This document shows positions 2,594 to 37,675 of a DNA stretch of 64,000 nt, piece by piece. The notes under the pieces were generated by a model, which did not search any database, was not told the DNA's origin, and saw only the letters and a program-made list of their open reading frames with translations. A program made the position numbers and the translations under genes. The stretch comes from a virus: IMG/VR virus record IMGVR_UViG_3300020469_000011, positions 32,001-96,000 of that record; one strand, given 5' to 3'. Positions within the stretch are counted from its first letter, which is position 1. Every line of letters begins with the position of its first letter.

Positions 2594-3541
2594 ATGATCA
2601 TTCGTGAAGAATTTTTATGGGTTCAGAAATATCGTCCAAAAAGTGTACAAGAATTAATCCTTCCTGAAGATATTAGAGATACCTTAACTTCATTTGTAGA
2701 ACAAGGTAGCTTACCTAATTTTCTTTTTCATTCTCAATCTGGTGGTACTGGTAAAACAAGTGCCGCTTTGGCTATTGCTCATCAATTAGACCTTGATGTA
2801 ATGATGATTAACGCATCTGAGGAAAGGTCTATTGATATTATACGAAATAAAATGACTGATTTTTGTTCTGCTATGGCACTTGACGGTAGAAGAAAAATGA
2901 TGATATTAGATGAAGCAGATCATCTGCCAGATTTAAGTCAAAATGCTTTGAGGAACTTTTTTGAAAAATTTTCCTCTAATTGTTCTTTTGTTATGACTGC
3001 AAATCAAGCTCAAAGAATTATATCCCCCCTACACTCTAGATGTTCCGTTATTGAATTTAAATTTCCTAAAGCAGAGAAACCGAAATTAGCTGGTGAATTT
3101 TACCAAAGAATATGTAATATTTTAACAGAAGAAAACATTACTTTTGATAAGAAATTAATTCAACATGCTATTGTGCATTTTTTCCCAGACTTTCGTAGAT
3201 GTATAAATGAATTACAAAGATACAGTGCTACCGGACAACTTTCAGATAAAATACTTTCAAATGTACAAAATGAAAAAATAGATGCCTTATTAGAAGCGAT
3301 TGAAAGTAAGAAATTTAATTCTGTTCGTAAATTTATTCTTGAAAATTGGCATGGAACTGAACAAGAGTTATATCGTTCAGTATACGAAGAACTTATGCAA
3401 AAGGCAAGTCCTCAATCAATACCGGATATTATTTTAATACTTTCTAAGTATGGATTTGAATCTACGTTTGCTGTAGATAAAGAAATACATACTTTAGCTT
3501 GTATGGTTGAGTTAATGAGTTTGCCTATTGAATTTAAGTGA
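2594..3541 (+). CDS. gp44: clamp loader large subunit (T4 gp44-like AAA+)
   Basis: LWVQKYRP, Walker A GGTGKT, NASEERS, Walker B ILDEAD, SRC motif, FPDFRRCIN. Confidence 0.95.
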   Translation: MIIREEFLWVQKYRPKSVQELILPEDIRDTLTSFVEQGSLPNFLFHSQSGGTGKTSAALAIAHQLDLDVMMINASEERSIDIIRNKMTDFCSAMALDGRRKMMILDEADHLPDLSQNALRNFFEKFSSNCSFVMTANQAQRIISPLHSRCSVIEFKFPKAEKPKLAGEFYQRICNILTEENITFDKKLIQHAIVHFFPDFRRCINELQRYSATGQLSDKILSNVQNEKIDALLEAIESKKFNSVRKFILENWHGTEQELYRSVYEELMQKASPQSIPDIILILSKYGFESTFAVDKEIHTLACMVELMSLPIEFK

Positions 3542-6356: not shown

Positions 6357-9224
6357 ATGTTTAACACATCTAATTTCACACACAGGCACACTGGTCCAAA
6401 TTTAAAAGAACAAAAATACATGTTGGAATTTTTAGGTTGTAAATCTTTAGAAGATTTATTATCACAAACAGTTCCTCATAATATACTAGAAAATAAAAGT
6501 AATCTTGACTTAGATCCAGTTAGTGAAGAAAAAGCACTAGATGAATTAAAATCCATAATAGATAAAAATAAAATATGGAAGAGTTATCTAGGTCAAGGTT
6601 ATTATGGAACGTACCTACCTTCTGTTATTCAAAGAAATCTTTTAGAAAATCCTGGATGGTATACATCATATACACCATATCAAGCTGAGATAGCTCAAGG
6701 TAGACTTGAAGCATTATTAAACTATCAACAGATGGTAATTGATCTTACCGCAATGGATTTAGCAAATGCTTCATTATTAGATGAGGCAACTGCCGCTGCA
6801 GAAGCTATGACTCTTTGCCATCGTCAATCCAAAAAGAAAAGCAACTTATTTTTTGTAGATTCAACAGTACATGAACAAACAATAGAATTATTAAAAACAA
6901 GAGCACAACCTTTAGACATTCAGTTGACTATAGGAAATCTTGAAGACATTATAGAACCCGAAAAATATTTTGGTTGTCTTTTACAGTACCCAAATACGTT
7001 CGGTCACATAGAAGATTGGTCTGATTTGATTGAAAATTTACACTCAGATAATGTACTTGTTTGTATGGCTACAGATTTATTAGCACTTACTATTTTAAAA
7101 CCTCCTGGAGAAATGGGTGCTGATATTGTGTTTGGTAGTAGTCAAAGGTTTGGTGTACCAATGGGTTATGGTGGACCTCATGCTGCATTTTTTGCTATCA
7201 AAGAAAACCTCAAAAGAAGTTTACCTGGTAGATTAATCGGTGTATCAAAAGATAGAAGGGGTAAAACTGCATATAGATTAAGTTTACAAACAAGAGAGCA
7301 GCACATTCGTAGAGAAAAGGCAACAAGTAATATTTGTACAGCACAAGTTCTACTTGCTGTTATTGCTGGCTTTTATGCAGTCTATCACGGACCTAATGGA
7401 TTAAAACAAATTGCTGAAAGAGTTAATACTTTAACAAAACTTTTATATGGTGTATTAACAGATAGTGGATATTCATCTAATGAAAACTTTTTTGATACAC
7501 TGCTGATACATGTAGGAGATAAACAAGATAAAATTATTGGTAAAGCTGAACTATTTGAAGTTAATCTTAGAATTGTTGGAGATAATTTCGTAGGAATAAG
7601 TTTAGATGAAACAACTACTTTAGAAGATGTAATTGATTTGTTTGTAGTTTTTGATATTGATACCCATGAATATAGTAAAGATATAGATAATATCTTATCG
7701 TTGTATAGTGAATCGGGAATTTCTTCTAATTTAAAAAGAGAATCTGAATACTTAACACATCCTGTTTTTCATGATTATCACTCAGAAACTGAGTTGATGA
7801 GATATATGCATAAACTTGAAGACAGAGACCTGGCTTTAAATCGTGCAATGATTCCACTTGGTTCATGTACTATGAAATTAAATAGCACAAGTGAAATGAT
7901 TCCAGTAACATGGCCTACCATTGGATTACTTCATCCTTTTGTACCAATTGATCAGTCAGAAGGTATAAGAGAAATGATGAATCAGTTAGAAGAGTGGTTA
8001 TTAGATTTAACAGGTTTTGATGCAATTAGTATGCAACCCAATTCAGGTGCTCAAGGAGAATATGCAGGTTTATTAGCTATACGTGATTATCATATTAAAA
8101 ATAATGAATCTCATAGAAACATTTGTTTGATACCAAATTCTGCTCATGGAACAAATCCAGCAAGCGCACAAATGTGTGGAATGAAAGTTATAGTGGTTAA
8201 TTGTGATTCAGAAGGTAATGTAGACATAGAAGACCTGACTAAAAAAACAGAAAAACACGCAATGAATTTAAGTGCGTTAATGGTTACTTATCCTAGTACT
8301 CACGGTGTTTTTGAAGAAGAGATTGAGAGTATTTGTAAAATAGTACAAAACAACGGTGGTCAAGTTTATATGGATGGCGCAAATTTAAACGCATTAATAG
8401 GAGTAGCACAACCTGGTAAATTTGGTCCTGATGTCATGCATTTTAATTTACATAAAACATTTTGTATACCTCACGGTGGTGGAGGTCCTGGAATGGGACC
8501 GATAGGAGTTAAAAAACATTTAGAACCTCATTTACCAAATCATCCAATAATAGGTTTAAATGATAAGTGGAGTGGTGGTTCTATTAGTGCTGCACCTTGG
8601 GGAAGTCCAAGTATATTGCCGATTAGTTGGATGTATATCAGAATGATGGGTGGAAAAAATCTTAGAACAGCAAGTCAAGTCAGTATATTAAATGCAAACT
8701 ATGTCGCTGAGAGATTAAGCAAATATTATCCAATATTGTATCGTGGAAAAAATGGAAGACTTGCTCATGAATGTATTATTGATATACGTCCTATAAAAAG
8801 TAGATCAGGTATATCAGAAGAAGACATAGCAAAACGTCTTATGGATTATGGATTTCATGCACCAACAATGAGTTGGCCAGTTCCAGGTACATTAATGATA
8901 GAACCTACCGAAAGTGAATCATTAGTAGAACTAGATAAATTTTGTGATGCTATGTTGAAAATTGGTGAAGAGATACAGAAGGTAGAAAACAATGAATGGA
9001 ATGTAGAAAATAATCCCTTAGTAAATGCTCCACATACACAATCAGATATTGTTGATAAAGAATGGGTTTACAATTATGATTATGAGAGAGAAGTTGCTGT
9101 ATTTCCACTAGAATATATTAAAGATAATAAATTTTGGCCTTTTGTAAATCGTATTGATAATGCATATGGCGATAGAAATTTAGTCTGTTCTTGTCCGTCA
9201 TTAGAAGAATATACGGAGGAATGA
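6357..9224 (+). CDS. gcvP: glycine dehydrogenase (decarboxylating), glycine cleavage P protein, single-chain
   Basis: YTPYQAEIAQGRLE, NASLLDEATAAAEAM, QTREQHIRREKATSNICT, PLGSCTMKLN, PLP-Lys motif NLHKTFCIPHGGGGPG, GDRNLVCSCP. Confidence 0.97.
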   Translation: MFNTSNFTHRHTGPNLKEQKYMLEFLGCKSLEDLLSQTVPHNILENKSNLDLDPVSEEKALDELKSIIDKNKIWKSYLGQGYYGTYLPSVIQRNLLENPGWYTSYTPYQAEIAQGRLEALLNYQQMVIDLTAMDLANASLLDEATAAAEAMTLCHRQSKKKSNLFFVDSTVHEQTIELLKTRAQPLDIQLTIGNLEDIIEPEKYFGCLLQYPNTFGHIEDWSDLIENLHSDNVLVCMATDLLALTILKPPGEMGADIVFGSSQRFGVPMGYGGPHAAFFAIKENLKRSLPGRLIGVSKDRRGKTAYRLSLQTREQHIRREKATSNICTAQVLLAVIAGFYAVYHGPNGLKQIAERVNTLTKLLYGVLTDSGYSSNENFFDTLLIHVGDKQDKIIGKAELFEVNLRIVGDNFVGISLDETTTLEDVIDLFVVFDIDTHEYSKDIDNILSLYSESGISSNLKRESEYLTHPVFHDYHSETELMRYMHKLEDRDLALNRAMIPLGSCTMKLNSTSEMIPVTWPTIGLLHPFVPIDQSEGIREMMNQLEEWLLDLTGFDAISMQPNSGAQGEYAGLLAIRDYHIKNNESHRNICLIPNSAHGTNPASAQMCGMKVIVVNCDSEGNVDIEDLTKKTEKHAMNLSALMVTYPSTHGVFEEEIESICKIVQNNGGQVYMDGANLNALIGVAQPGKFGPDVMHFNLHKTFCIPHGGGGPGMGPIGVKKHLEPHLPNHPIIGLNDKWSGGSISAAPWGSPSILPISWMYIRMMGGKNLRTASQVSILNANYVAERLSKYYPILYRGKNGRLAHECIIDIRPIKSRSGISEEDIAKRLMDYGFHAPTMSWPVPGTLMIEPTESESLVELDKFCDAMLKIGEEIQKVENNEWNVENNPLVNAPHTQSDIVDKEWVYNYDYEREVAVFPLEYIKDNKFWPFVNRIDNAYGDRNLVCSCPSLEEYTEE

Positions 9225-9808
9225 TGTTTGTAGCTATTATAATAGGCTATCATAAAAAAGACAGTTTCAATCATCAAGGCATAGTAAAAACTATTACATC
9301 TGAATGTGAAAATAATGGAATAAACTATTGTCTTATAGACTTATATAAAGATAATTTTAATCCAAGCAATCAACCAGATAATAAAATTAAGATATCCCAT
9401 TATCATGAAATCTTATTGAAAGCAACTCATCATATCTATGTAAGTCCTGTTTGGTGGTTTAGGTGTACTAGTATGTTAGAGGGGTTTTTTGATCAAATAT
9501 TCATACCTGGCTTTGCATATAATTTTAAACAAATTACAAAAACATACGGCATTCCAGTTCCAAGATTATCAGATAAGAAAGTGTTAACCTATTTGACACA
9601 TGGTGCGCCCGCATTACCAGTTTATACAATTTATCTCAATAGTGTATGGGGCAGATTACAACTAGGAGTTTTCAGTTTTGTCTATGGGTGGTTCAGACCA
9701 AAAATAAGACAGTTTTTCAGTGTTCCATTTTGCAGTGATGATACTAGAAAAAAGTATATAAAAACAGTGAGAAAGGATATTTTAAAAGAAATTCAAAAAA
9801 GTTCTTGA
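9221..9808 (+). CDS. flavodoxin-fold NAD(P)H-dependent oxidoreductase
   Basis: SFNH, IDLYKDNFNP, SPVWWF...LEGFFDQIFIPGFAY, THGAP; ATGA overlap with gcvP stop. Confidence 0.85.
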   Translation: MMFVAIIIGYHKKDSFNHQGIVKTITSECENNGINYCLIDLYKDNFNPSNQPDNKIKISHYHEILLKATHHIYVSPVWWFRCTSMLEGFFDQIFIPGFAYNFKQITKTYGIPVPRLSDKKVLTYLTHGAPALPVYTIYLNSVWGRLQLGVFSFVYGWFRPKIRQFFSVPFCSDDTRKKYIKTVRKDILKEIQKSS

Positions 9809-10421: not shown

Positions 10422-10611
10422 AAAAGATAAAAAAGCAAACTACAAAAGAAAACTCATGGTAAGACATGCTCTTGACCAAATTGAATATATGAAAAAGACC
10501 GCAAAAGAAAATAAAGAATCTAGCGAAGTGATTGCCAGAAAAGAGGCAAATATGGTAAATTTTTATAAAAGTAAAATCAAAACATTTGATAATGTGCGCA
10601 ATAATCTATGA
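10405..10611 (+). CDS. hypothetical basic protein
   Basis: Overlapping operon ORF. Confidence 0.5.
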   Translation: MRTSIKKDKKANYKRKLMVRHALDQIEYMKKTAKENKESSEVIARKEANMVNFYKSKIKTFDNVRNNL

Positions 10612-10970
10612 ATATTCATAGCATACAACTAACAGAAAAAGCATCAAATGCAATAGTTGAATCTATTGTAGAAAGCGGAGAAAATATTAATGATGTCTGT
10701 TTACGTGTCGGTGCTAATAAAGGAGGTTGTTCTGGTTGGAGATGGGAATTAGAAACTGAGCCAGTTGACAATAAAAAAGAAACCGATCTAATTTTTAACA
10801 ATAGAGATATAACAGTTATAGTAGATAAAAATATACTCAACGATGTTATTGGTAGTGTCAAAATAGATTATGATACTAAAAATATGGTTGAGCAAGGATT
10901 TGTTTTCATACGCTCAACTGGCCAACAGTGTGGATGTGGTGAATCTTTCACACCAGTAAATGAAATATAA
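10608..10970 (+). CDS. iscA: A-type Fe-S cluster carrier (IscA/ErpA/HesB family)
   Basis: IQLTEKA, LRVGANKGGCSG, KIDY, CGCGESF. Confidence 0.9.
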   Translation: MNIHSIQLTEKASNAIVESIVESGENINDVCLRVGANKGGCSGWRWELETEPVDNKKETDLIFNNRDITVIVDKNILNDVIGSVKIDYDTKNMVEQGFVFIRSTGQQCGCGESFTPVNEI

Positions 10971-10976
10971 AACTAT

Positions 10977-11063
10977 GCGGAGGGTTCCGGCCAGCTGTCT
11001 TATACGCAGTCAGTTAAACAGGCCGGCGGTGCTATAGAGGTTCAACTCCTCCTCTCCGTACCA
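10977..11063 (+). ncRNA. non-canonical tRNA-like RNA with UAU (Ile) anticodon loop, no D-arm
   Basis: Acceptor GCGGAGGG/CTCTCCGT + A + CCA; T-arm GAGG TTCAACT CCTC; stem-loop GCTGT CTTATAC GCAGT; extra CCGGCC/GGCCGG helix. Confidence 0.75.
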
Positions 11064-11081
11064 ACATAATTTATTTATACT

Positions 11082-11462
11082 ATGGATACCGCAAATAATG
11101 ATTTAATCTTCAACAGTGATTTAAAAGAAACTGGTGATGAAGAACCGCAAACTATTTCCTATAACTCTTCCGTTGTAGATGAAATCGTAGAAAATGACCC
11201 ACAATTAACTAAGATTGTAACTCCAGTTGATGACTGGACATATTGGGCAAAATGGGCAGGTAATTTCTTTCTTATTGTAGGAACATTAATAACTAATTTA
11301 GAACTATTTCCATATAACTTTATTTTTAATCTAATTGGATTATCATTGTGGGCAATTGTAGCAGCACAATGGAACGACAGAAGTTTGGTAGTTCTAAATA
11401 TTTTTCTTTTAGGCACAGTTGCAATGACGTTGGCGCAACACATTAAAGAATTTTTCTTATAA
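11082..11462 (+). CDS. membrane protein (DUF6552-like by recall)
   Basis: WAKW...FPYN...LSLWAIVAAQWNDRSLVVLN; three hydrophobic helices. Confidence 0.6.
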   Translation: MDTANNDLIFNSDLKETGDEEPQTISYNSSVVDEIVENDPQLTKIVTPVDDWTYWAKWAGNFFLIVGTLITNLELFPYNFIFNLIGLSLWAIVAAQWNDRSLVVLNIFLLGTVAMTLAQHIKEFFL

Positions 11463-29608: not shown

Positions 29609-32600
29609 CTACACTAAGATAGTGGAATTCAATAAATTTATCTGCTCTACTGTCATTACTGCATTATTTACAATACTAGTCGTAAAAGTATTTAGTTCAC
29701 TAATATTCCAAGTATAAAGTTCATTTTTTATATAATTCATCTTTAAACTAGAGTGATTATATCTTTTATGATTATTTCTTCTTTTTATTAATCTCTCATC
29801 ATAATATTTCAATCTGAAATCTAAGAAATTATCAACATAATTATTTAATAAAAACTCCTCTAGTGTTATTCCATTATTTATATTATTTATTTCAGTTCCT
29901 AAACCGTCAACATTTCCATTTGCATTTACACTTCCAAAAGTATTTGCAACTCCAAAGGTAGCATTCATATATAGTTTCAAATCATATGGAACAATAGAAT
30001 CTATATTAACATAATTATTATTATTGTATTCAGAAATTTTATATGTAGAATCAAATATATTTTTTGATAACAGTTCAGCTTTCACAGAAGGAATATGGTC
30101 TTCCAAGTAATCTGATAGTTTTAATTTTTTCTTTTCATCAATAGTTCCATATAAGAAATCATGGCGAATAACTTTATCAATATCAAATAATTCATTTCTG
30201 TTGTTTATTTCTTCAAATAATTTTTCAATATTTTCTTCATCACCTAATACAGGAATACTATCTACAAAACTACTTTCTCTGTGTCTAATAGTTGAGGATT
30301 CCTTTAATTTAGTAACTAATTTTTCTTCATCTTCAAATACGCTACTTATAACATTTCTTGAATGTCCAAATGGTATTGGTCTTACATTTTCAATTTGATC
30401 ACTAATCACAGCATTTTTACGTTTTTCAATTGTACCTAATAAGAAGACATCAGTTATCTTATCTTTTAATGAAACTACTGAATTGTCAACAGGAAGTATC
30501 ATTTCTTCTGAAAAATCAGTCAAACTTTCGGTTTCTACGAAAGAAGCATCTAAGAAAACTGGTTGTGTTCCTATAAGGAAATCATCTACAGTTTTTAACT
30601 TTGGTAGATACTTGTCTACAAATGATTGACTAATTATTGTAGGCTCATGAATTTCTTCAGACACAACTGTTCTATTAATATCAATACGATTTTCAAGTAT
30701 AGTGAAATCCAAGAAGCCGTCTATTATTTCATAGTATTTTCTTAAAATAAAATCTTTTTTAGTAATTATATGTCTATCTGAAATTACATTGTGATTATTT
30801 TCATATTCATGAAACTCTAATTGTTGATCTATAGTTGCGTCTAAAAATGTAGTATTTCCGAATGTTACTGTAGTGTGGGGATATTCTTTAGTAGTTAAAT
30901 CTAATTCTGGTTTATAGATTATTCTTGGTTCATGAAGTGCTCTTACAGAAGGAATGTAATTTAAATCAGAAGTAACTATAGGAACATCTAAGTAATCTCC
31001 TATTAAACCATAAAACCATTTCATTCCAATTCTACGATTTCTACCCATGACAACATTTTTATCAAGAACAAATTGATTGTGTTCATATTCATGAAACTCT
31101 AATTGTTGATCTATAGTTCCATCTAAGAATGTAGTATTTGCAAATGTTACTGTTGTGAAAGGAGTAAATTTAAATGTACCATCTAGTTCAGGTTTGTAAG
31201 TTATTTCAGGTTCATTAAGTACAGAAACTGAAGGAATAGATTGTCCACCCCATTCTACTATGGTCTGTTTTCTAAATATCTCTTTTATATTTTTATTTAA
31301 GAAAGGACTAATTTTTTCTTGAGTAGCAAATATAGAAAATCTATCAGGAATAAAGGTGTCATTTTCAAAATCAAATTCTTCAATCATATCACTTGTTGCA
31401 TCTAAGAAAGTTGTATTTGGAAAATATACAGTTGTTATTGGAGTTATTACCGTCTGAGCATCTAGTTCTGGTTTATATGTTATTTCAGGCTCATTCAATA
31501 CGGAAACAGATGGTATCGTATCCTTATTGTACTCTCTCAATATTTGAGTACGCATGTTTTTTCTAATATCTTTATTTAAAAATGGATTTATAAAGTTATT
31601 CGTAGAAAAAGTTGCGAATCTATCTATTATTGATATATCATTTTCAAAATCAAACTCTTCGGTCATGTAACTTGTTGCATCTAAGAAAGTAGTATTTGGA
31701 AATGTAACTGTAGTAAATATGTCTGTTTTTGTATTTGCATCAATGTCTATTCTTCTAATATATCTTGGTTCTGTTAAAGGAACAACTCCTGGTAAAGTAT
31801 CTTTATTATATTCTTTTAAAAATTGATTCATCATATAACTTGCAATTTTTCTGTCAAACCATCTGCCAATAATATTTCCTTTAGAAAATGTACGGTTTCT
31901 ATCAAATATTGGAACATTGTGTTCAAAAGTATCTTCTATGAAAGTAGAAATAGATCCATCTAAAAATACTGTGTTTGGAAAATAAACTATTGTATGTGGA
32001 TCGTAATATGTTTTAATTTCATCAGATAATGTTCTCAAACTTTCTATATGTGTTTCTCCTAAAACTAACGCTTGAGGTAAAGCATCTTTATCATATGCTT
32101 TAACTGTTTGTAGTCTCATGGATTTTTTTATAGGTAAATTGATTACTCTATCTATACGCCTTCTTAATGAAAATAAACGATTCCTATCTATGATTTCATT
32201 CATTATTTCAATATGAGGCTCAGGAGTTTGCTCACTTAAACTACTATCCAAGAAAGTTGTGTTCGGAAAATATACAGTTGTTATTGGTGTTATAATTGGA
32301 TTAGTTATCTCAGCTAAATCTCTTAAACTTAAAATATTAGCCATTCCAGTTGCTGCCGCTATTGGTATTCTATCACCAACATATTCTAAGAAAGAATATT
32401 TTCTATACTCATCTATAAAACGATCTGTCCAAGGTTCAATTTTATCTCCATATTGGAGAAATTCATTTCTAGATAAAACATCAAATTTTACATAAGTTGT
32501 TTTTTCTTGAAATAGAACAGTAGAAGAATCTAAAAATGTTGTGTTTGGAAAATAAACTATAGTGTCAATTTGTTCAGCGATAGATACTGCCTGTTCTTGA

Positions 32601-35600
32601 GGCCGTACATATAAAATTGCTTCTTCTACTGTTGTGGCTCTTCTTGTTAAATCTCCTAGCCATCTTCTACTAATAGCCTTTAACCAAGGTTTAAAGAATA
32701 CAGGTACCCAAGGTTTTATAATTTGACCAAAGTCAAAAAATAAAAATCTGTCTAGCAAATCAACTTCTATTTTTCTAAATATTTCATTTTCTGCAACAGA
32801 AAATGTATTTCCGGCAGGAGCAGGATCTATTCCACCAGAAACTAAAGTAGATAAAGGTTCTAAACCATCATTAACTGCTAATAAAGAAATATTTGATAAG
32901 TATGGAATGGGTTGATCTATTTCTACGGTCGGTATTAAACTATCTACATCATCATGCATTATAAGTTTTCTACTTAAATCTGTAAGTTCGGTAGAAGATA
33001 TTTGAAACGGAGATATATAATTTAAAGGTATAGATATTTGTGTTCTTTCTAATACACTAGTTTTAAAATTATCTATAATAGCATGATTGATTACTGAAGG
33101 AACTTCTATTTTAACATCAAAAACAGTTCTGTCAAAAATTGTATTTTTTCTACCCTGATGTGCGAAACCAAAATCAAAAAAGAAATCGTCTCTATCAAAG
33201 CCTACATCTGTTCCACTAAATTGGAACGGTCTTTTTAAACCATATCCAAAAACATTTTCTTCTAGATGAGTTGTATATTGAGTAGGAGGACTTTCACCTA
33301 ATGTAGCATCAACTTCATTTATTCTTGAAATAACATAACGTACATTATGATTCTTAGGTATTAAATTATCTATATTAGTCCAATTTATAAGATTTCCATC
33401 TTCAACTATTGAACCTAATTTTTCTTTTTCACCAAACACATTTATATCAGCAGCAGAAATCAAAGCATTAATTCTATTTTTTTGTAAATCCTCTATTTTA
33501 TTTAAAACAGTAACAATTGCTTTAGGATCAAATTGATGGTCAGGAGAAAGTACATTAATATTTTCTGCAAGTAATGTTAAAGCTGTCATATCACTAAAAC
33601 TTATTTCATAACCTTCTATATCAACTTTTGGTTTATATCCACGTATTGCTGATATATAATTTTCAAAGGAGAGTTTAGATACTCTGTTTTTTCTTTCATT
33701 AGCGAATCTACCAATATCAAAATTAGCTGCTTCATTTTCTTCACTAACAAATCTAGCAACAGGAGTTTCATTTGGTGAAGAATGTGGTAGTGGAAATGTT
33801 ATAGTAAATGATTGATTATCTTCATTAATGACAGTGTGTAATGGTAGTTCATCTATAGCATAAGCCCGGGTATTTGCTGATGCTTCATTAGAAAGGATAT
33901 CTTCATTAAATGTTTTAAAATCTTTTGATAAGTCAAGGGTTACATAATGAAATTTATTAGGTTCACCAGTTTCTATATGTTTTAAAAATCCGCTATAGTC
34001 AGAAAAATAAAATTCTTGTCTAATTAAGTTTAGTGAAAATTCTGGTTTAGCTAGAACTACATAATCAAGGGTCAGGGGGGAAATTCGGGCTAGGTCCACC
34101 ACTATCGATGGCTCTGGGCCGAAGGTCTGGCTGTTTCCCTTTCGTACTAAAGAACTGAAAAAAAAAAGTTCGGAAGGAGCCACCTCCGGGTAAGGATTGT
34201 TAGTATTTGCGTTGGAATTAAAATCAAATATAATTGTGTTGGAAGGTGGCTCTATTTCCAACATATGTGACAAATCTATTTTTATACCTTCTAAGAAATC
34301 CTCTGTATGCAAAACATCTTCTTCTGTTCCAATTTTTGCAACAGTAAATTCATTATTAATAGCATATGACATATGTACAAAATCTAAATCTGGCTCACTT
34401 ATCTTTATACCACTCTTAATGAAATTCTCTATGTTATCTATTACAACACAATATAAAGTACCTGTATAGCTTACTCTATTTCTTGTAATGTTATTTTTTA
34501 TTCTAACCTGTTCATTTACAACAGATTCATTTGAATATAGTTTACTCAAATCTACTGTGTTAAAGAATGAAGAAGTTCTTGCAATATTTAATTTTTTGGA
34601 TTTTACCTTAAAAAGTAATTTATCTATACCTGAAGTAACTAATTCTTGTTCTTCCGTTACAGTAATAGATAGTCCTGCATTATCTGTATATTCGTATAGA
34701 TAACCATCATAATCAGACTCTATAATTAATTTGGGTTTTTTCCATTTAACAATTCCCTTTTCACTAACATCAGCTACATGATCATCATAAGTTAAATTTT
34801 TAAACATTACCCAACCACGATCTCTAGTAAGAATTTCACTTGTAGGTAAATATGCAGCTTCTCCATTTAAAGAGTTTCCACTAATTAAAGGTTTATAAAC
34901 TGCTGTTTCACTAAAATCAAATGAAGTATTACTGTATTTTACATCATCTCCGCTGGTTCTATTTCCTGTATAATCTGAGATATCACGTACTATAATCATA
35001 CCACCTCTATTAAAAGAAGCAGTGTGACGATTAATATAATCTATTGTTATTCTAAAATTATCAATGGTTTTATCTTTGGCTGAGTCAATTGGACCTGCTT
35101 TATATTTTATTAAATCAGTTCTCCAGTTAGCTTCATCTTCTACGTTTACTATTTTCATGAAAGATTCAACAGATACTAATCCATCATAGTAAAATTGTTC
35201 TGTAATTAAATTATCTTTGTTATCAGTAGCCAAATACTTATCAAAAGAAGTATTACTTTTGCGTCTATTGTTTGAGTAATAAAAATCATATAAAGGACTT
35301 TGTAATGGATTTGTTACTATATCATCTATGAAATATTTAAAAGTGGCAAATATATCAGGTATGCCATCCATACCACCACCAATTTCTACTCTATGATGAT
35401 CTTTTGTTGTAATAGTTTCATTACTAATTTGAGAGACTTGTATTGTGGGTTCTACTAATATTTTATTATCATTTAAAATAAAGTCGTCTTTGTTCAGAAG
35501 TTTATCTTTTTCTATCTGAACTACCATGTGAGGATATATTTCACTTTGTAAATATCCTGCAGTTTCGTTTTCTATTTCTGTAAATTCAAAAGTTTTTATT

Positions 35601-37675
35601 CTAGTTTCTAATTCAGATTCAAATTTATTTCTTATGAACGCTAAAAATCCTGCTGGATGCAATTCATCTAATAATAGAGGTTCAATTAAATCTGCTGGTA
35701 TTTTTGTTATAATTTCATAAGAATAATGTTGATAGTAATAATTATCAAAGAAATACTTATTTGATGAAAGCATACTATCATTGTTTAAGAAATCTCCAAA
35801 AGGTTCAAACAATAAACCAGTTTCATATTCAAGTTTACCTGTTAATCCATGTTCTATTAAAGAGTCATAAAATGTTAGTGTTTCCGGAGGTCTTTTGAAA
35901 ATAACTTCATCTGTATCATCTACCATCAAACCAACATCATCTATTTTTAATTCTGATATTCCATCACCTAGTTTAGACTCTAAAACAGCAGTGTCACTTA
36001 AAGGATTGATATTTACAAGGTCTTTAATTTCGGCAGTTAATTGAGCGTTATTATAAGTAAAAGTTACATCTGTATCGTTTTCTAAATTTGTTGCAGACCG
36101 TTGAGTAACGAATCTTTTAACTTTAACATTTTCACTCTTAATAGAAATACCATTAAATAATATAGGAGTTTCATCTGTATCAATATCTACTTCCCCTATA
36201 CAAGTTGCTAAAGTTTCATCATTTGGAACATTGGTAGCTCCTGATATAGTGAGTGAGGTATTTGCAACAATGTATTGTGCATTAGCTTCATAAGTCGCTG
36301 AGTTTACATCTGTATCAAATAATACATCAAAGTAATTTAATAAACTTGCTTGAGTTAATGAATTAAATGCAGTAGTTCTTGGTGGTAATTCATAGCCTAA
36401 TCCAGAATCTTCAAATTTAACTTCTTTAATTGAACCAACCTCATAATCTGAAGCAAAACTTACTGGAAGAACTTGTAAACTGTTAGTGTTCTGAAATGTA
36501 TTAGAACCTGAAAATACAGTGTTATTTAAATTATAATTTTGAAATGTACTTACAGGTCTATTTTTTATAGTGTTATAATAACTATTAAAAAACTGAGTTA
36601 ATGTTGGATTTACATCAATTGCAGTAACTTTAGCTTTTGCTGAATAAGTTGCTCCTGTAAATTCATTATCAAATACAATTGGATCACCGACACGATAACA
36701 AACTCCAGAATCTTTGATATCAATTTTTGTGACAGAGTGTTTCTTTAATTTAGAAATTCTACCCATACCATCATCAAAGGTAAATCTATCATCTACACTA
36801 TGACCTATTCCACCGTCTATAGGCTTTACACCAATAATAGATTCTAATATTTGAGTTCTTCCTTTTTCAACACCTGTGCTTATATCATAGGCAATAATTG
36901 TTTCATCTTTAACAAATGTTCCGTTTATATAAATTAAATCTAAAAATCCACGAAAAGTATTGTCTAGATATCTTGATACAGTATTTTTACAGGTGGCAGT
37001 AGCTCCAGATATCGTACCAACTATTCTAGCGTTACTAAATGTTGAACCATCTCTGTTGATTTTTATTTGAACTAAATTTTTCTCAGTATATCCACTATCA
37101 GAGAGCCGTAAAATATCTACTTTTGGATAATATAATTCTATGTCATCTTCAAAAAATATTCTAAAAAACCAATAATAAGAATTTTCAGTATCTTTATTTT
37201 TGTAATAATCTAATATTCTTTTAGTTAGAGTTTTTGGATCAACTCTTTTAAACACACTTTCATCAAGTGATACATTATTTTTAAAATATTTTTTAAATAC
37301 GTTTAGTGCGGTATCATAAGAAGTATTATCTTCAATATCATTCATGTATTGATATATATTTTTATAAAGACTTCTTATGAAATATATTTCTCCAGTATCA
37401 CCGTTAAATATAACTTCATTTTTATAAAACTGATTTCCTTCTGTTATATAATCAAAGTATATTCTATTGTTTGTAACAATTTTTACAACTGCTTTAGCTT
37501 TAGATAAAGAGCCGTAAATTAGATCACCTTCTGATAGTTTTTTGTTATCAGATAAAACTATAATTGAAGATTCTAAAAAGTTGTAGTATTCTTCTACAAA
37601 CTTTATGAATTGAGGGTATTGCTCATAAAAATAGTTGGGCAGTTGGCTTTCAACTAAATCTTTGGGTGTTGTCAT
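29609..37675 (-). CDS. gp7: baseplate wedge initiator (gp7-like) with ~2000-aa C-terminal extension
   Basis: VESQLPNYFYEQYPQFIKFVEEYYNFLE, FFRIFF...YPKVDILRLSD, YYQHYSY...LHPAG; between gp6 and gp8. Confidence 0.8.
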   Translation of the reverse strand: MTTPKDLVESQLPNYFYEQYPQFIKFVEEYYNFLESSIIVLSDNKKLSEGDLIYGSLSKAKAVVKIVTNNRIYFDYITEGNQFYKNEVIFNGDTGEIYFIRSLYKNIYQYMNDIEDNTSYDTALNVFKKYFKNNVSLDESVFKRVDPKTLTKRILDYYKNKDTENSYYWFFRIFFEDDIELYYPKVDILRLSDSGYTEKNLVQIKINRDGSTFSNARIVGTISGATATCKNTVSRYLDNTFRGFLDLIYINGTFVKDETIIAYDISTGVEKGRTQILESIIGVKPIDGGIGHSVDDRFTFDDGMGRISKLKKHSVTKIDIKDSGVCYRVGDPIVFDNEFTGATYSAKAKVTAIDVNPTLTQFFNSYYNTIKNRPVSTFQNYNLNNTVFSGSNTFQNTNSLQVLPVSFASDYEVGSIKEVKFEDSGLGYELPPRTTAFNSLTQASLLNYFDVLFDTDVNSATYEANAQYIVANTSLTISGATNVPNDETLATCIGEVDIDTDETPILFNGISIKSENVKVKRFVTQRSATNLENDTDVTFTYNNAQLTAEIKDLVNINPLSDTAVLESKLGDGISELKIDDVGLMVDDTDEVIFKRPPETLTFYDSLIEHGLTGKLEYETGLLFEPFGDFLNNDSMLSSNKYFFDNYYYQHYSYEIITKIPADLIEPLLLDELHPAGFLAFIRNKFESELETRIKTFEFTEIENETAGYLQSEIYPHMVVQIEKDKLLNKDDFILNDNKILVEPTIQVSQISNETITTKDHHRVEIGGGMDGIPDIFATFKYFIDDIVTNPLQSPLYDFYYSNNRRKSNTSFDKYLATDNKDNLITEQFYYDGLVSVESFMKIVNVEDEANWRTDLIKYKAGPIDSAKDKTIDNFRITIDYINRHTASFNRGGMIIVRDISDYTGNRTSGDDVKYSNTSFDFSETAVYKPLISGNSLNGEAAYLPTSEILTRDRGWVMFKNLTYDDHVADVSEKGIVKWKKPKLIIESDYDGYLYEYTDNAGLSITVTEEQELVTSGIDKLLFKVKSKKLNIARTSSFFNTVDLSKLYSNESVVNEQVRIKNNITRNRVSYTGTLYCVVIDNIENFIKSGIKISEPDLDFVHMSYAINNEFTVAKIGTEEDVLHTEDFLEGIKIDLSHMLEIEPPSNTIIFDFNSNANTNNPYPEVAPSELFFFSSLVRKGNSQTFGPEPSIVVDLARISPLTLDYVVLAKPEFSLNLIRQEFYFSDYSGFLKHIETGEPNKFHYVTLDLSKDFKTFNEDILSNEASANTRAYAIDELPLHTVINEDNQSFTITFPLPHSSPNETPVARFVSEENEAANFDIGRFANERKNRVSKLSFENYISAIRGYKPKVDIEGYEISFSDMTALTLLAENINVLSPDHQFDPKAIVTVLNKIEDLQKNRINALISAADINVFGEKEKLGSIVEDGNLINWTNIDNLIPKNHNVRYVISRINEVDATLGESPPTQYTTHLEENVFGYGLKRPFQFSGTDVGFDRDDFFFDFGFAHQGRKNTIFDRTVFDVKIEVPSVINHAIIDNFKTSVLERTQISIPLNYISPFQISSTELTDLSRKLIMHDDVDSLIPTVEIDQPIPYLSNISLLAVNDGLEPLSTLVSGGIDPAPAGNTFSVAENEIFRKIEVDLLDRFLFFDFGQIIKPWVPVFFKPWLKAISRRWLGDLTRRATTVEEAILYVRPQEQAVSIAEQIDTIVYFPNTTFLDSSTVLFQEKTTYVKFDVLSRNEFLQYGDKIEPWTDRFIDEYRKYSFLEYVGDRIPIAAATGMANILSLRDLAEITNPIITPITTVYFPNTTFLDSSLSEQTPEPHIEIMNEIIDRNRLFSLRRRIDRVINLPIKKSMRLQTVKAYDKDALPQALVLGETHIESLRTLSDEIKTYYDPHTIVYFPNTVFLDGSISTFIEDTFEHNVPIFDRNRTFSKGNIIGRWFDRKIASYMMNQFLKEYNKDTLPGVVPLTEPRYIRRIDIDANTKTDIFTTVTFPNTTFLDATSYMTEEFDFENDISIIDRFATFSTNNFINPFLNKDIRKNMRTQILREYNKDTIPSVSVLNEPEITYKPELDAQTVITPITTVYFPNTTFLDATSDMIEEFDFENDTFIPDRFSIFATQEKISPFLNKNIKEIFRKQTIVEWGGQSIPSVSVLNEPEITYKPELDGTFKFTPFTTVTFANTTFLDGTIDQQLEFHEYEHNQFVLDKNVVMGRNRRIGMKWFYGLIGDYLDVPIVTSDLNYIPSVRALHEPRIIYKPELDLTTKEYPHTTVTFGNTTFLDATIDQQLEFHEYENNHNVISDRHIITKKDFILRKYYEIIDGFLDFTILENRIDINRTVVSEEIHEPTIISQSFVDKYLPKLKTVDDFLIGTQPVFLDASFVETESLTDFSEEMILPVDNSVVSLKDKITDVFLLGTIEKRKNAVISDQIENVRPIPFGHSRNVISSVFEDEEKLVTKLKESSTIRHRESSFVDSIPVLGDEENIEKLFEEINNRNELFDIDKVIRHDFLYGTIDEKKKLKLSDYLEDHIPSVKAELLSKNIFDSTYKISEYNNNNYVNIDSIVPYDLKLYMNATFGVANTFGSVNANGNVDGLGTEINNINNGITLEEFLLNNYVDNFLDFRLKYYDERLIKRRNNHKRYNHSSLKMNYIKNELYTWNISELNTFTTSIVNNAVMTVEQINLLNSTILV
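30540..32570 (-). repeat. ~95-aa tandem protein repeat in gp7 extension (7 clear + 1-2 degenerate)
   Basis: T[TI]V[YT]F[PAG]NT[TV]FLD[SGA] recurs every ~280-290 nt. Confidence 0.85.

What the first reader, a model, noticed from the sequence alone, without database searches (positions are those of the whole stretch)
10977..11063. D-armless tRNA-like RNA with a UAU (Ile) anticodon nested in an extra helix
Seen: an 87-nt GC-rich element in the tRNA region. It has an 8-bp acceptor (10977-10984 with 11052-11059, two G-U pairs), discriminator A and CCA. The T-stem is 4 bp with loop TTCAACT, giving 8/4 geometry. A 5-bp stem carries the 7-nt loop CT-TAT-AC (anticodon 11001-11003). There is no D-arm; instead CCGGCC (10987-10992) pairs with GGCCGG (11021-11026) and encloses the anticodon arm. 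Known: bacteria normally read AUA with lysidine-modified CAU tRNA, UAU tRNAs are rare, and A73 fits Ile. ATA codons are frequent in this phage. Inference: either a TilS-independent AUA decoder with a new fold or a tRNA-mimic decoy against anticodon nucleases or synthetases. Standard tRNA scanners would probably miss it.
Basis: partly seen in the sequence, partly recalled or inferred. Interest (0 to 1): 0.72.

Follow-up and report, generated by a model that had tools for sequence, protein, structure and literature searches.

The report
Phage isoleucine tRNA with rewired D-arm
This 87-base gene of an uncultured marine T4-like phage encodes a conserved transfer-RNA-like molecule, most likely for the isoleucine codon AUA, whose D-arm is rebuilt from pieces on either side of the anticodon arm; tRNA finders miss this layout and I found it in no paper.

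Summary
Window 10977-11063 (+) has an 8-bp acceptor stem, a 4-bp T-stem with a canonical T-loop, A73-CCA, and a 5-bp stem with the loop CU-UAU-AC. A 6-bp helix (10987-10992 with 11021-11026) encloses the anticodon arm.

I found 16 distinct relatives at about 70 places in viral and aquatic metagenome contigs. All carry UAU. 98.8% of cells pair, and 16 of 26 pairs show compensatory changes.

One is an invariant D-loop-like CGGU. The other is a covarying 3-bp pseudoknot (11012-11014 with 11031-11033). So the D-arm is rewired rather than absent.

In two relatives the gene sits inside tight tRNA arrays. ARAGORN and Rfam miss it.

The phage has 29.6% GC and uses AUA for 41% of its Ile codons. My best reading is a working AUA-decoding tRNA-Ile charged by the host IleRS (about 0.65). 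A decoy or regulatory mimic is not excluded. Charging and expression were not shown here.

The closest published relatives are the 8/4 allo-tRNA(UAU) species, but their defining D hairpin and V-arm are absent. Earlier runs of this scan noted the same family on other DNA (22 findings in at least 21 genomes hold the search words).

The parts
10977..10984 (+). Acceptor stem, 5' strand (8 nt)
   Evidence: Pairs with 11052-11059. 100% of cells pair in 16 sequences and 6 of 8 pairs show compensatory changes.
10985..10986 (+). Two-nucleotide linker UU (takes the place of positions 8-9)
   Evidence: The second U is nearly invariant.
10987..10992 (+). Long-range helix H2, 5' strand CCGGCC. It runs straight into the anticodon stem, so it lies where the D-stem 3' strand would lie.
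   Evidence: Pairs with 11021-11026. 99% of cells pair and 4 of 6 pairs show compensatory changes.
10993..10993 (+). A17, a candidate 26:44-like non-Watson-Crick partner of C at 11011
   Evidence: This position and the first base after the anticodon stem read A:C in 12 sequences, G:U in 3 and C:U in 1. The pairing itself is an inference.
10994..11010 (+). Anticodon arm: 5-bp stem (10994-10998 with 11006-11010) and 7-nt loop CUUAUAC, anticodon UAU at 11001-11003
   Evidence: The stem pairs in 100% of cells, with 3 compensatory pairs. CTTATA, including U33 and A37, is invariant in all 16 sequences.
11012..11014 (+). Pseudoknot, 5' strand AGT
   Evidence: Pairs with 11031-11033. The first pair is A-U in 8 sequences and G-C in 7. 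L298 has a 4-bp GCGC/GCGC version.
11015..11020 (+). Spacer TAAACA with an invariant AAA
   Evidence: AAA is invariant. Its role, perhaps A-minor or triple contacts, is inferred.
11021..11026 (+). Helix H2, 3' strand GGCCGG (takes the place of the D-stem 5' strand)
   Evidence: The Rfam tRNA-Sec model aligns H2 to its own 6-bp D-stem.
11027..11030 (+). CGGU, a D-loop-like segment. The GG is proposed to play the part of G18/G19 and contact the T-loop.
   Evidence: CGGTGC is invariant in all 16 sequences, as are T-loop positions T-T-C-A-A. The contact itself is inferred.
11031..11033 (+). Pseudoknot, 3' strand GCT
11037..11051 (+). T-arm: 4-bp stem GAGG/CCTC and loop TTCAACT
   Evidence: The T-loop is canonical (T54 T55 C56 A57 A58, with G53:C61). 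The stem shows 2 compensatory pairs.
11052..11059 (+). Acceptor stem, 3' strand
   Evidence: In one low-depth DNA contig, T11053C turns a G-U pair into G-C.
11060..11063 (+). Discriminator A73 and encoded CCA
   Evidence: A73 is invariant. CCA is encoded in 15 of 16 distinct sequences. In L300 the next tRNA starts at the base directly after CCA.

Best explanation
The element is a gene for a working elongator tRNA that reads the isoleucine codon AUA with an unmodified-C-free UAU anticodon, so it does not need lysidine synthetase (TilS). It keeps what translation needs:
- a 12-bp acceptor/T branch (8+4);
- a canonical T-loop;
- A73-CCA;
- a 7-nt anticodon loop with U33, U36 and A37.

Its core has a different connectivity. 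The strand after the acceptor goes directly into the D-stem 3'-strand position and on into the anticodon stem. The D-stem 5'-strand equivalent and a four-base D-loop equivalent (CGGU) come after the anticodon arm. A 3-bp pseudoknot then leads the chain back to the T-stem.

The stack has 5 bp of anticodon stem, one 26:44-like pair and 6 bp of H2. That is as many layers as a canonical anticodon/D branch (5 bp, the 26:44 pair, 4 bp of D-stem and the two tertiary layers 8:14 and 15:48), so an L-shape of normal size is plausible.

It is probably transcribed with its neighbours, cut out by RNase P and 3' processing enzymes, and charged by the host IleRS. It would then supply AUA decoding for a 29.6%-GC phage.

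Shown: sequence, conservation, covariation, genomic placement, codon usage.
Inferred: 3D fold, processing, charging, decoding.
For: - Helices: all five are supported by covariation. On a MAFFT-only alignment of 13 sequences, 99.7% of cells pair and 14 of 26 pairs have double changes, with 0 of 500 shuffles as high. With 16 sequences, 98.8% pair and 16 of 26 pairs have double changes; versions slid by 1-3 columns pair in only 49-60% of cells. RNAalifold predicts the same nested structure on its own.
- Anticodon: the loop CTTATA is invariant. An anticodon-independent pattern returned only UAU members among about 40 metagenome and 12 viral loci.
- Other invariants: T-loop TTCAA, G53:C61, A73, and CGGTGC with its GG.
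- tRNA slot: in L300 the gene lies 9 nt after tRNA-Arg(UCU), and its CCA abuts the first base of tRNA-Thr. In L298 it lies between tRNA-Asn and tRNA-Gly with spacers of 7 and 2 nt. The L300 array holds one tRNA per anticodon, includes Ile(GAU), and has no other AUA decoder.
- Same strand: in this window it lies among tRNA-Asn, Asp and Arg(UCU), all on the same strand.
- Demand: AUA is 41% of Ile codons (31 per 1000) and AGA is 68% of Arg codons. The phage also carries tRNA-Arg(UCU).
- Specificity: only the 5 tRNAs and this element have a tRNA-type acceptor/T minihelix in the record.
- Precedent: bacterial IleRS can use tRNA-Ile(UAU), as in Mycoplasma mobile (PMC3575796) and tilS-deleted B. subtilis (PMC3919564).
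Against: - No direct evidence of a mature RNA, of charging or of ribosome use. The only RNA-library contig over the element covers 10825-11003, comes from a run whose RNA label is a guess, and could be DNA.
- The same genome has a canonical tRNA(CAU) with C4:G69, C5:G68 and A73, which may be tRNA-Ile2. A homologous CAU tRNA lies about 240 nt upstream of the element in the L035 group. The AUA decoder could therefore be redundant, which leaves room for another role.
- Six allo-tRNA(UAU) species, the closest published 8/4 relatives, were inactive in E. coli once converted to amber suppressors (PMC5389517).
- Unmodified U34 could also read AUG.
- G8:C76, the pair that makes the branch 8/4 rather than 7/5 with an A-C mismatch, never varies, so covariation cannot settle it.
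- The pseudoknot rests on one covarying pair plus the L298 variant.
Confidence: 0.65

Rival explanations
1. It is a tRNA mimic that is not used for decoding. It could be a decoy or sponge for a host factor that recognises the tRNA-Ile anticodon loop or the acceptor/T minihelix, such as an anticodon nuclease, a tRNA-targeting defence system, TilS, IleRS or a modification enzyme. It could also be a regulatory small RNA.
For: A probable canonical tRNA-Ile2(CAU) co-occurs in the genome and lies next to the element in the L035 lineage, so decoding might already be covered. The core is unusual. Published 8/4 allo-tRNA(UAU) species were inactive as suppressors and were proposed to be non-translational (PMC5389517).
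Against: A decoy for an anticodon-loop or acceptor-binding factor would not need all of these at once: an exact 12-bp acceptor/T branch, a canonical T-loop, an invariant elbow-type GG, A73-CCA and a stack of normal length. In the L300 array it fills the only AUA slot. No candidate partner protein is consistently linked to it.
Confidence: 0.2
2. It is a recoding or missense tRNA: charged with an amino acid other than Ile (as allo-tRNAs are charged with Ser or Ala), so that AUA is read differently during infection.
For: 8/4 allo-tRNAs with non-serine anticodons insert Ser or Ala in E. coli (PMC5389517). The rewired core removes D-arm identity elements.
Against: There is no long variable-arm hairpin for SerRS and no G3:U70 for AlaRS: pair 3:70 is an invariant G-C. 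A73, U36-A37 and mostly A38 fit Ile identity. The phage's own genes use AUA at 31 per 1000 codons, so missense would damage its own proteome.
Confidence: 0.05
3. It is a decayed pseudo-tRNA or a chance hairpin set with no function.
For: Standard finders reject it. ARAGORN calls it only at a 90% threshold, and then with a poor cloverleaf.
Against: There are 16 distinct sequences at about 70 places, with compensatory changes in every helix and invariant functional loops. Element GC is 57% against 29.6% for the genome.
Confidence: 0.02

Closest known systems
Bacterial tRNA-Ile(UAU) AUA decoders (Mycoplasma mobile, PMC3575796; B. subtilis tilS-deletion suppressor, PMC3919564)
   Same: UAU anticodon with U33, A37 and A73. 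They read AUA without lysidine. They are presumably charged by IleRS.
   Different: Those are ordinary cloverleaf 7/5 tRNAs with a D hairpin. This RNA is 8/4, has no D hairpin, and has a long-range D-stem-like helix plus a pseudoknot.
(8/4) allo-tRNA, especially allo-tRNA(UAU) (Mukai et al. 2017, PMC5389517)
   Same: An 8/4 split of the 12-bp acceptor/T branch. A 6-bp D-stem-like helix followed by a four-base GG-containing loop, as in tRNA-Sec. UAU is the predominant anticodon of that group. Phages are known to carry 8/4 tRNAs.
   Different: Allo-tRNAs have a local D stem-loop before the anticodon arm and a long V-arm hairpin. Here the two strands of the 6-bp helix lie on either side of the anticodon arm and there is no V-arm hairpin. 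Published allo-tRNA(UAU) come from soil Acidobacteria and sit near toxin-antitoxin genes; these are aquatic phages. Their sequences (supplement) were not available, so no direct comparison was made.
tRNA-Sec (Rfam RF01852)
   Same: 8-bp acceptor, a 6-bp D-stem with a 4-nt loop, and a two-base linker. The Rfam model aligns H2 to its D-stem.
   Different: The score is 17.9 bits against a gathering score of 47. tRNA-Sec has a 13-bp branch, a UCA anticodon and a long V-arm; none of these is present.
D-armless mitochondrial tRNAs of animals (reviewed in PMC7609411)
   Same: No D hairpin between the acceptor and anticodon stems.
   Different: Those replace the D-arm with a short flexible connector and often have degenerate T-loops. 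Here the D-domain is rebuilt by long-range pairing and the T-loop is fully canonical.
Engineered non-canonical tRNAs in E. coli (PMC11551756)
   Same: A tRNA with a non-cloverleaf fold intended for bacterial translation.
   Different: That one is laboratory-made. [quoted passage not shown] This would be a natural case, carried by phages.

Membership tests
Canonical tRNA (cloverleaf; Rfam RF00005) | 12-bp coaxial acceptor/T branch, discriminator base and CCA end | tested here: met
   8+4 bp, with A73 and CCA. All pairs are kept in 16 sequences.
Canonical tRNA (cloverleaf; Rfam RF00005) | T-loop T54-T55-C56-R57-A58 closed by G53:C61 | tested here: met
   The loop is TTCAACT, and TTCAA is invariant.
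Canonical tRNA (cloverleaf; Rfam RF00005) | 5-bp anticodon stem with a 7-nt loop, U33 and purine 37 | tested here: met
   The loop is C-U-UAU-A-N and is invariant through A37. The stem covaries.
Canonical tRNA (cloverleaf; Rfam RF00005) | D stem-loop hairpin between the acceptor and anticodon stems | tested here: not met
   Only 9 nt separate the two stems. The partner strand lies 3' of the anticodon arm.
Canonical tRNA (cloverleaf; Rfam RF00005) | Reaches the Rfam gathering score, or is called by ARAGORN at default settings | tested here: not met
   No RF00005 match is listed at E up to 10 (within the tRNA clan only the best-scoring overlapping match, tRNA-Sec, is shown); ARAGORN gives no call. 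ARAGORN also made no call at the element in the 17 related loci scanned.
Canonical tRNA (cloverleaf; Rfam RF00005) | Aminoacylated and used on the ribosome | not testable with these tools
   Needs charging assays, tRNA-seq or reporter assays.
(8/4) allo-tRNA (PMC5389517) | 8-bp acceptor stem plus 4-bp T-stem | tested here: met
   The eighth pair, G:C, is invariant, so it has no covariation support. The 7/5 alternative would need an A-C mismatch.
(8/4) allo-tRNA (PMC5389517) | Local D stem-loop with a long stem and a tetraloop | tested here: not met
   The 6-bp helix exists but encloses the whole anticodon arm.
(8/4) allo-tRNA (PMC5389517) | Long variable-arm hairpin | tested here: not met
   The post-anticodon region forms H2 and a 3-bp pseudoknot instead.
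(8/4) allo-tRNA (PMC5389517) | Sequence relatedness to published allo-tRNA(UAU) | not testable with these tools
   The paper's supplementary sequences are not held.
tRNA-Sec (Rfam RF01852) | 13-bp branch, UCA anticodon, long V-arm, gathering score 47 | tested here: not met
   The score is 17.9 bits. The anticodon is UAU and the branch is 12 bp.
tRNA-Ile that decodes AUA (a functional class) | Anticodon able to read AUA, A37 next to U36, discriminator A73 | tested here: met
   UAU, A37 and A73 are invariant in 16 sequences.
tRNA-Ile that decodes AUA (a functional class) | Charged by IleRS | not testable with these tools
   No IleRS-type or TilS-type gene lies in the 146.5 kb held, so host enzymes would be needed.
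Rewired-D-arm phage tRNAs (provisional family from this scan's earlier notes; unpublished) | Order: acceptor, short linker, one D-stem strand, anticodon arm, other D-stem strand, GG loop, pseudoknot, T-arm | tested here: met
   The earlier notes describe the same order, and I did not compare sequences with theirs.

The most novel reading that the evidence does not exclude
Phages of bacteria carry natural, translationally active tRNAs whose core is not a cloverleaf. The D-stem strands are swapped around the anticodon arm and closed by a pseudoknot, yet the molecule still fits RNase P, IleRS, EF-Tu and the ribosome. It gives TilS-independent AUA decoding, and the altered core may let it escape host factors that recognise or cleave normal tRNAs.
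Probability: 0.55. Interest if true: 0.88.

Novelty: new variant of a known kind. Interest (0 to 1): 0.8.

Why it matters
The cloverleaf is treated as universal outside organelles. A 2024 paper states that all known bacterial tRNAs adopt it (PMC11551756).

A natural, conserved tRNA with a different strand topology that still worked in bacterial translation would show three things:
- The L-shape can be reached by another wiring.
- Phage tRNA sets are undercounted by ARAGORN-type and Rfam-type finders.
- There is a ready-made scaffold for orthogonal tRNA engineering.

It also bears on how AT-rich phages meet AUA demand without depending on host lysidine synthesis, and on whether phage tRNAs change shape to avoid tRNA-targeting defences.

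Tried and rejected
- GenBank phages: blastn of the element and of two relatives against 50,697 records found no homolog. The family was found only in uncultured contigs.
- Bacterial and archaeal genomes: an exact-pattern scan of 185,579 genomes gave two chance hits inside coding sequence of Acidobacteriaceae MAGs.
- Paralogs with other anticodons: searching the rest of the genome with model R1 found only a weak hit on the canonical tRNA-Gly. Among 93 other loci it found only the three UAU members already known.
- ARAGORN mitochondrial modes: no call. Only -ps90 forces a poor cloverleaf with a shifted acceptor.
- Single-sequence MFE: the inner hairpin register is not conserved in relatives, so I rejected it.
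- Linked partner protein: neighbours are not consistently conserved. A roughly 350-aa protein of no Pfam family lies within 1-2.4 kb in six loci, but about 80 kb away in this genome.
- Promoter and terminator scan: nothing above shuffled expectation.
- RNA evidence: three RNA-labelled runs hold only short contigs. One covers 10825-11003 and none covers the whole element, so this shows neither expression nor silence.
- TilS or class I synthetase genes: none in the record, which is 68% complete.
- Literature: six searches found no description of this layout.

Full report
**Observation.** It has an 8-bp acceptor stem with two G-U pairs, a UU linker, and CCGGCC at 10987-10992. A 5-bp stem carries the loop CUUAUAC, with UAU at 11001-11003. 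GGCCGG follows at 11021-11026, then a 4-bp T-stem with loop TTCAACT, then A73 and CCA. The element lies between an IscA-like ORF that ends at 10970 and a DUF6552 ORF that starts at 11082. tRNA-Asn, tRNA-Asp and tRNA-Arg(UCU) lie nearby on the same strand. ARAGORN and Rfam at gathering thresholds do not report it. The best Rfam match is tRNA-Sec at 17.9 bits against a threshold of 47. That alignment puts the 6-bp helix on the tRNA-Sec D-stem and treats the anticodon arm as an insertion.

**Is it more than chance?** The window is part of a 146.5-kb IMG/VR virus record with 29.6% GC, estimated 68% complete. The element itself has 57% GC. I scanned both strands of the record for any 12-bp acceptor/T minihelix with a TTCRA loop. 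The scan returned only the five ARAGORN tRNAs and this element.

**Relatives.** The DUF6552 neighbour led to a first homolog in four viral contigs. Pattern scans of IMG/VR and JGI metagenomes then gave 16 distinct sequences at about 70 places. One of those patterns does not include the anticodon. The samples are marine, estuarine and other aquatic metagenomes. None was found in GenBank phages or in a scan of 185,579 prokaryote genomes. Every member has UAU.

**Structure.**
14 of 26 pairs show changes on both sides, and 0 of 500 shuffles reach this.
- With 16 sequences the figures are 98.8% and 16 of 26. Versions slid by 1-3 columns pair in only 49-60% of cells.
- RNAalifold predicts the same nested structure on its own.
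- The single-sequence MFE shifts the inner hairpin by two bases. Relatives do not conserve that register.

- An invariant CGGUGC follows the 3' strand of the 6-bp helix.
- Its GCY (11031-11033) pairs with RGY (11012-11014) just after the anticodon stem. The first pair of this helix is A-U in 8 sequences and G-C in 7. L298 has a 4-bp GCGC/GCGC version.
- This helix crosses the 6-bp helix, so it forms a pseudoknot.
- The base before the anticodon stem and the base after it read A:C (12 sequences), G:U (3) or C:U (1). That pattern resembles a 26:44-type pair.

**Reading of the fold (inference).** The 5' strand of the 6-bp helix continues directly into the anticodon stem, as the D-stem 3' strand does in a normal tRNA. 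The 3' strand of the helix therefore takes the place of the D-stem 5' strand. The CGGU behind it sits where a short D-loop with G18/G19 sits in tRNA-Sec-type D-arms. The GG and the T-loop bases T55 and C56 are all invariant. The stack of 5 bp, one pair and 6 bp has as many layers as a normal anticodon/D branch (5 bp, the 26:44 pair, 4 bp of D-stem and two tertiary layers). So the D-domain is rewired rather than lost, and an L-shape of normal size is plausible.

**Function.**
- In L300 the gene lies 9 nt after tRNA-Arg(UCU), and its CCA is followed at once by tRNA-Thr. That array has ten tRNAs, one per anticodon, includes Ile(GAU), and has no other AUA decoder.
- In L298 it lies between tRNA-Asn and tRNA-Gly with spacers of 7 and 2 nt.
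- In this phage, a distant T4-like myovirus, AUA makes up 41% of Ile codons and AGA 68% of Arg codons. The phage also encodes tRNA-Arg(UCU).
- These facts, together with full retention of the features needed for translation, favour a working AUA decoder that needs no lysidine. Known bacterial tRNA-Ile(UAU) species work this way (PMC3575796, PMC3919564).
- No TilS-type or IleRS-type gene lies in the record, so host enzymes would have to act.

**Caveats.**
- Expression and charging are not shown. The only RNA-library contig over the element is partial and of doubtful origin.
- The genome also has a canonical tRNA(CAU) with C4:G69, C5:G68 and A73. From memory, those features match tRNA-Ile2 determinants. 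A homologous CAU tRNA sits about 240 nt from the element in the L035 lineage.
- That redundancy keeps a decoy or regulatory role alive.
- Mukai et al. found six allo-tRNA(UAU) species inactive in E. coli (PMC5389517).

**Comparison with what is known.** The closest published class is the 8/4 allo-tRNA, in which UAU is the commonest anticodon. Those RNAs are defined by a local D stem-loop and a long V-arm hairpin (PMC5389517). Both features are absent here, so I do not file this RNA as a member. It is not tRNA-Sec. It is also unlike D-armless mitochondrial tRNAs, which use a short connector (PMC7609411). Six literature searches found no description of this layout, and a 2024 paper states that all known bacterial tRNAs are cloverleaves (PMC11551756).

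**Earlier scan notes.** Earlier runs of this scan reported the same kind of rewired UAU tRNA on other DNA; 22 findings in at least 21 genomes hold the search words, and the eight shown all describe it. I had reached the helix, pseudoknot and D-loop reading before opening those notes. The lead to the allo-tRNA paper came from them, and I then read the paper myself.

**Verdict.** This is a real, conserved phage gene. It is most likely a tRNA-Ile(UAU) with a rewired, pseudoknotted D-domain (about 0.65). It is a new variant of a known kind and of high interest. Charging and structure experiments are still needed.

Noticed in passing
G000:C1:105129-105205 (outside the window); L035:8939-9015 (-); L215:13334-13410: A canonical tRNA(CAU) has C4:G69, C5:G68, A73 and the anticodon loop CUCAUAA. 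It is probably a lysidine-dependent tRNA-Ile2 rather than tRNA-Met. A homologous copy lies about 240 nt upstream of the rewired UAU gene in the L035 and L215 lineage. These phages may therefore carry two AUA decoders.
   Followed up: partly
G000:C1:101098-101173 (L301; outside the window): ARAGORN calls a tRNA-Gly with anticodon ACC (A34). This is unusual for bacteria and phages, which normally use GCC, UCC or CCC.
   Followed up: no
window 6357-9224: A full-length glycine cleavage P-protein (GcvP, 955 aa, Pfam E=6e-193) is encoded in a T4-like phage. It is followed by a flavodoxin-like-fold protein (9191-9808) and an IscA-like Fe-S assembly protein (10608-10970, just under the Pfam cut-off). 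This looks like a cluster of auxiliary metabolic genes.
   Followed up: no
L300:7011-7099 and L300:4999-5075: The T-arm of the rewired UAU gene (GTGG-TTCAACT-CCAC) is identical to the inner T-arm of the canonical tRNA-Ile(GAU) in the same array. The motif CGGTG precedes both. This may hint at descent from a tRNA-Ile, or at gene conversion.
   Followed up: no
window 11053: One low-depth DNA contig from a seawater metagenome (X7) has C instead of T. The change turns the G-U pair at acceptor position 7 into G-C, so it preserves the structure.
   Followed up: no
L035:5304-6365 (-), L052:8085-9194 (-), L123:6442-7491 (-); G000:C1:124245-125111: A roughly 350-aa protein with no Pfam family lies within 1-2.4 kb of the element in six loci. 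In this genome its homolog (31-34% identity) is about 80 kb away, so it is not a fixed partner.
   Followed up: partly
window 11082-11462, and L007-L010 at 3001-3369: The order 'rewired UAU gene, DUF6552 membrane-like protein, tRNA-Arg(UCU)' is conserved between this phage and the L007 lineage (77% protein identity).
   Followed up: partly
window 29609-37675 (-): A very large ORF (2688 aa) lies among baseplate wedge genes (PHROG 219 and 438 neighbours). It is probably a tail fibre or baseplate giant protein. I did not examine it.
   Followed up: no
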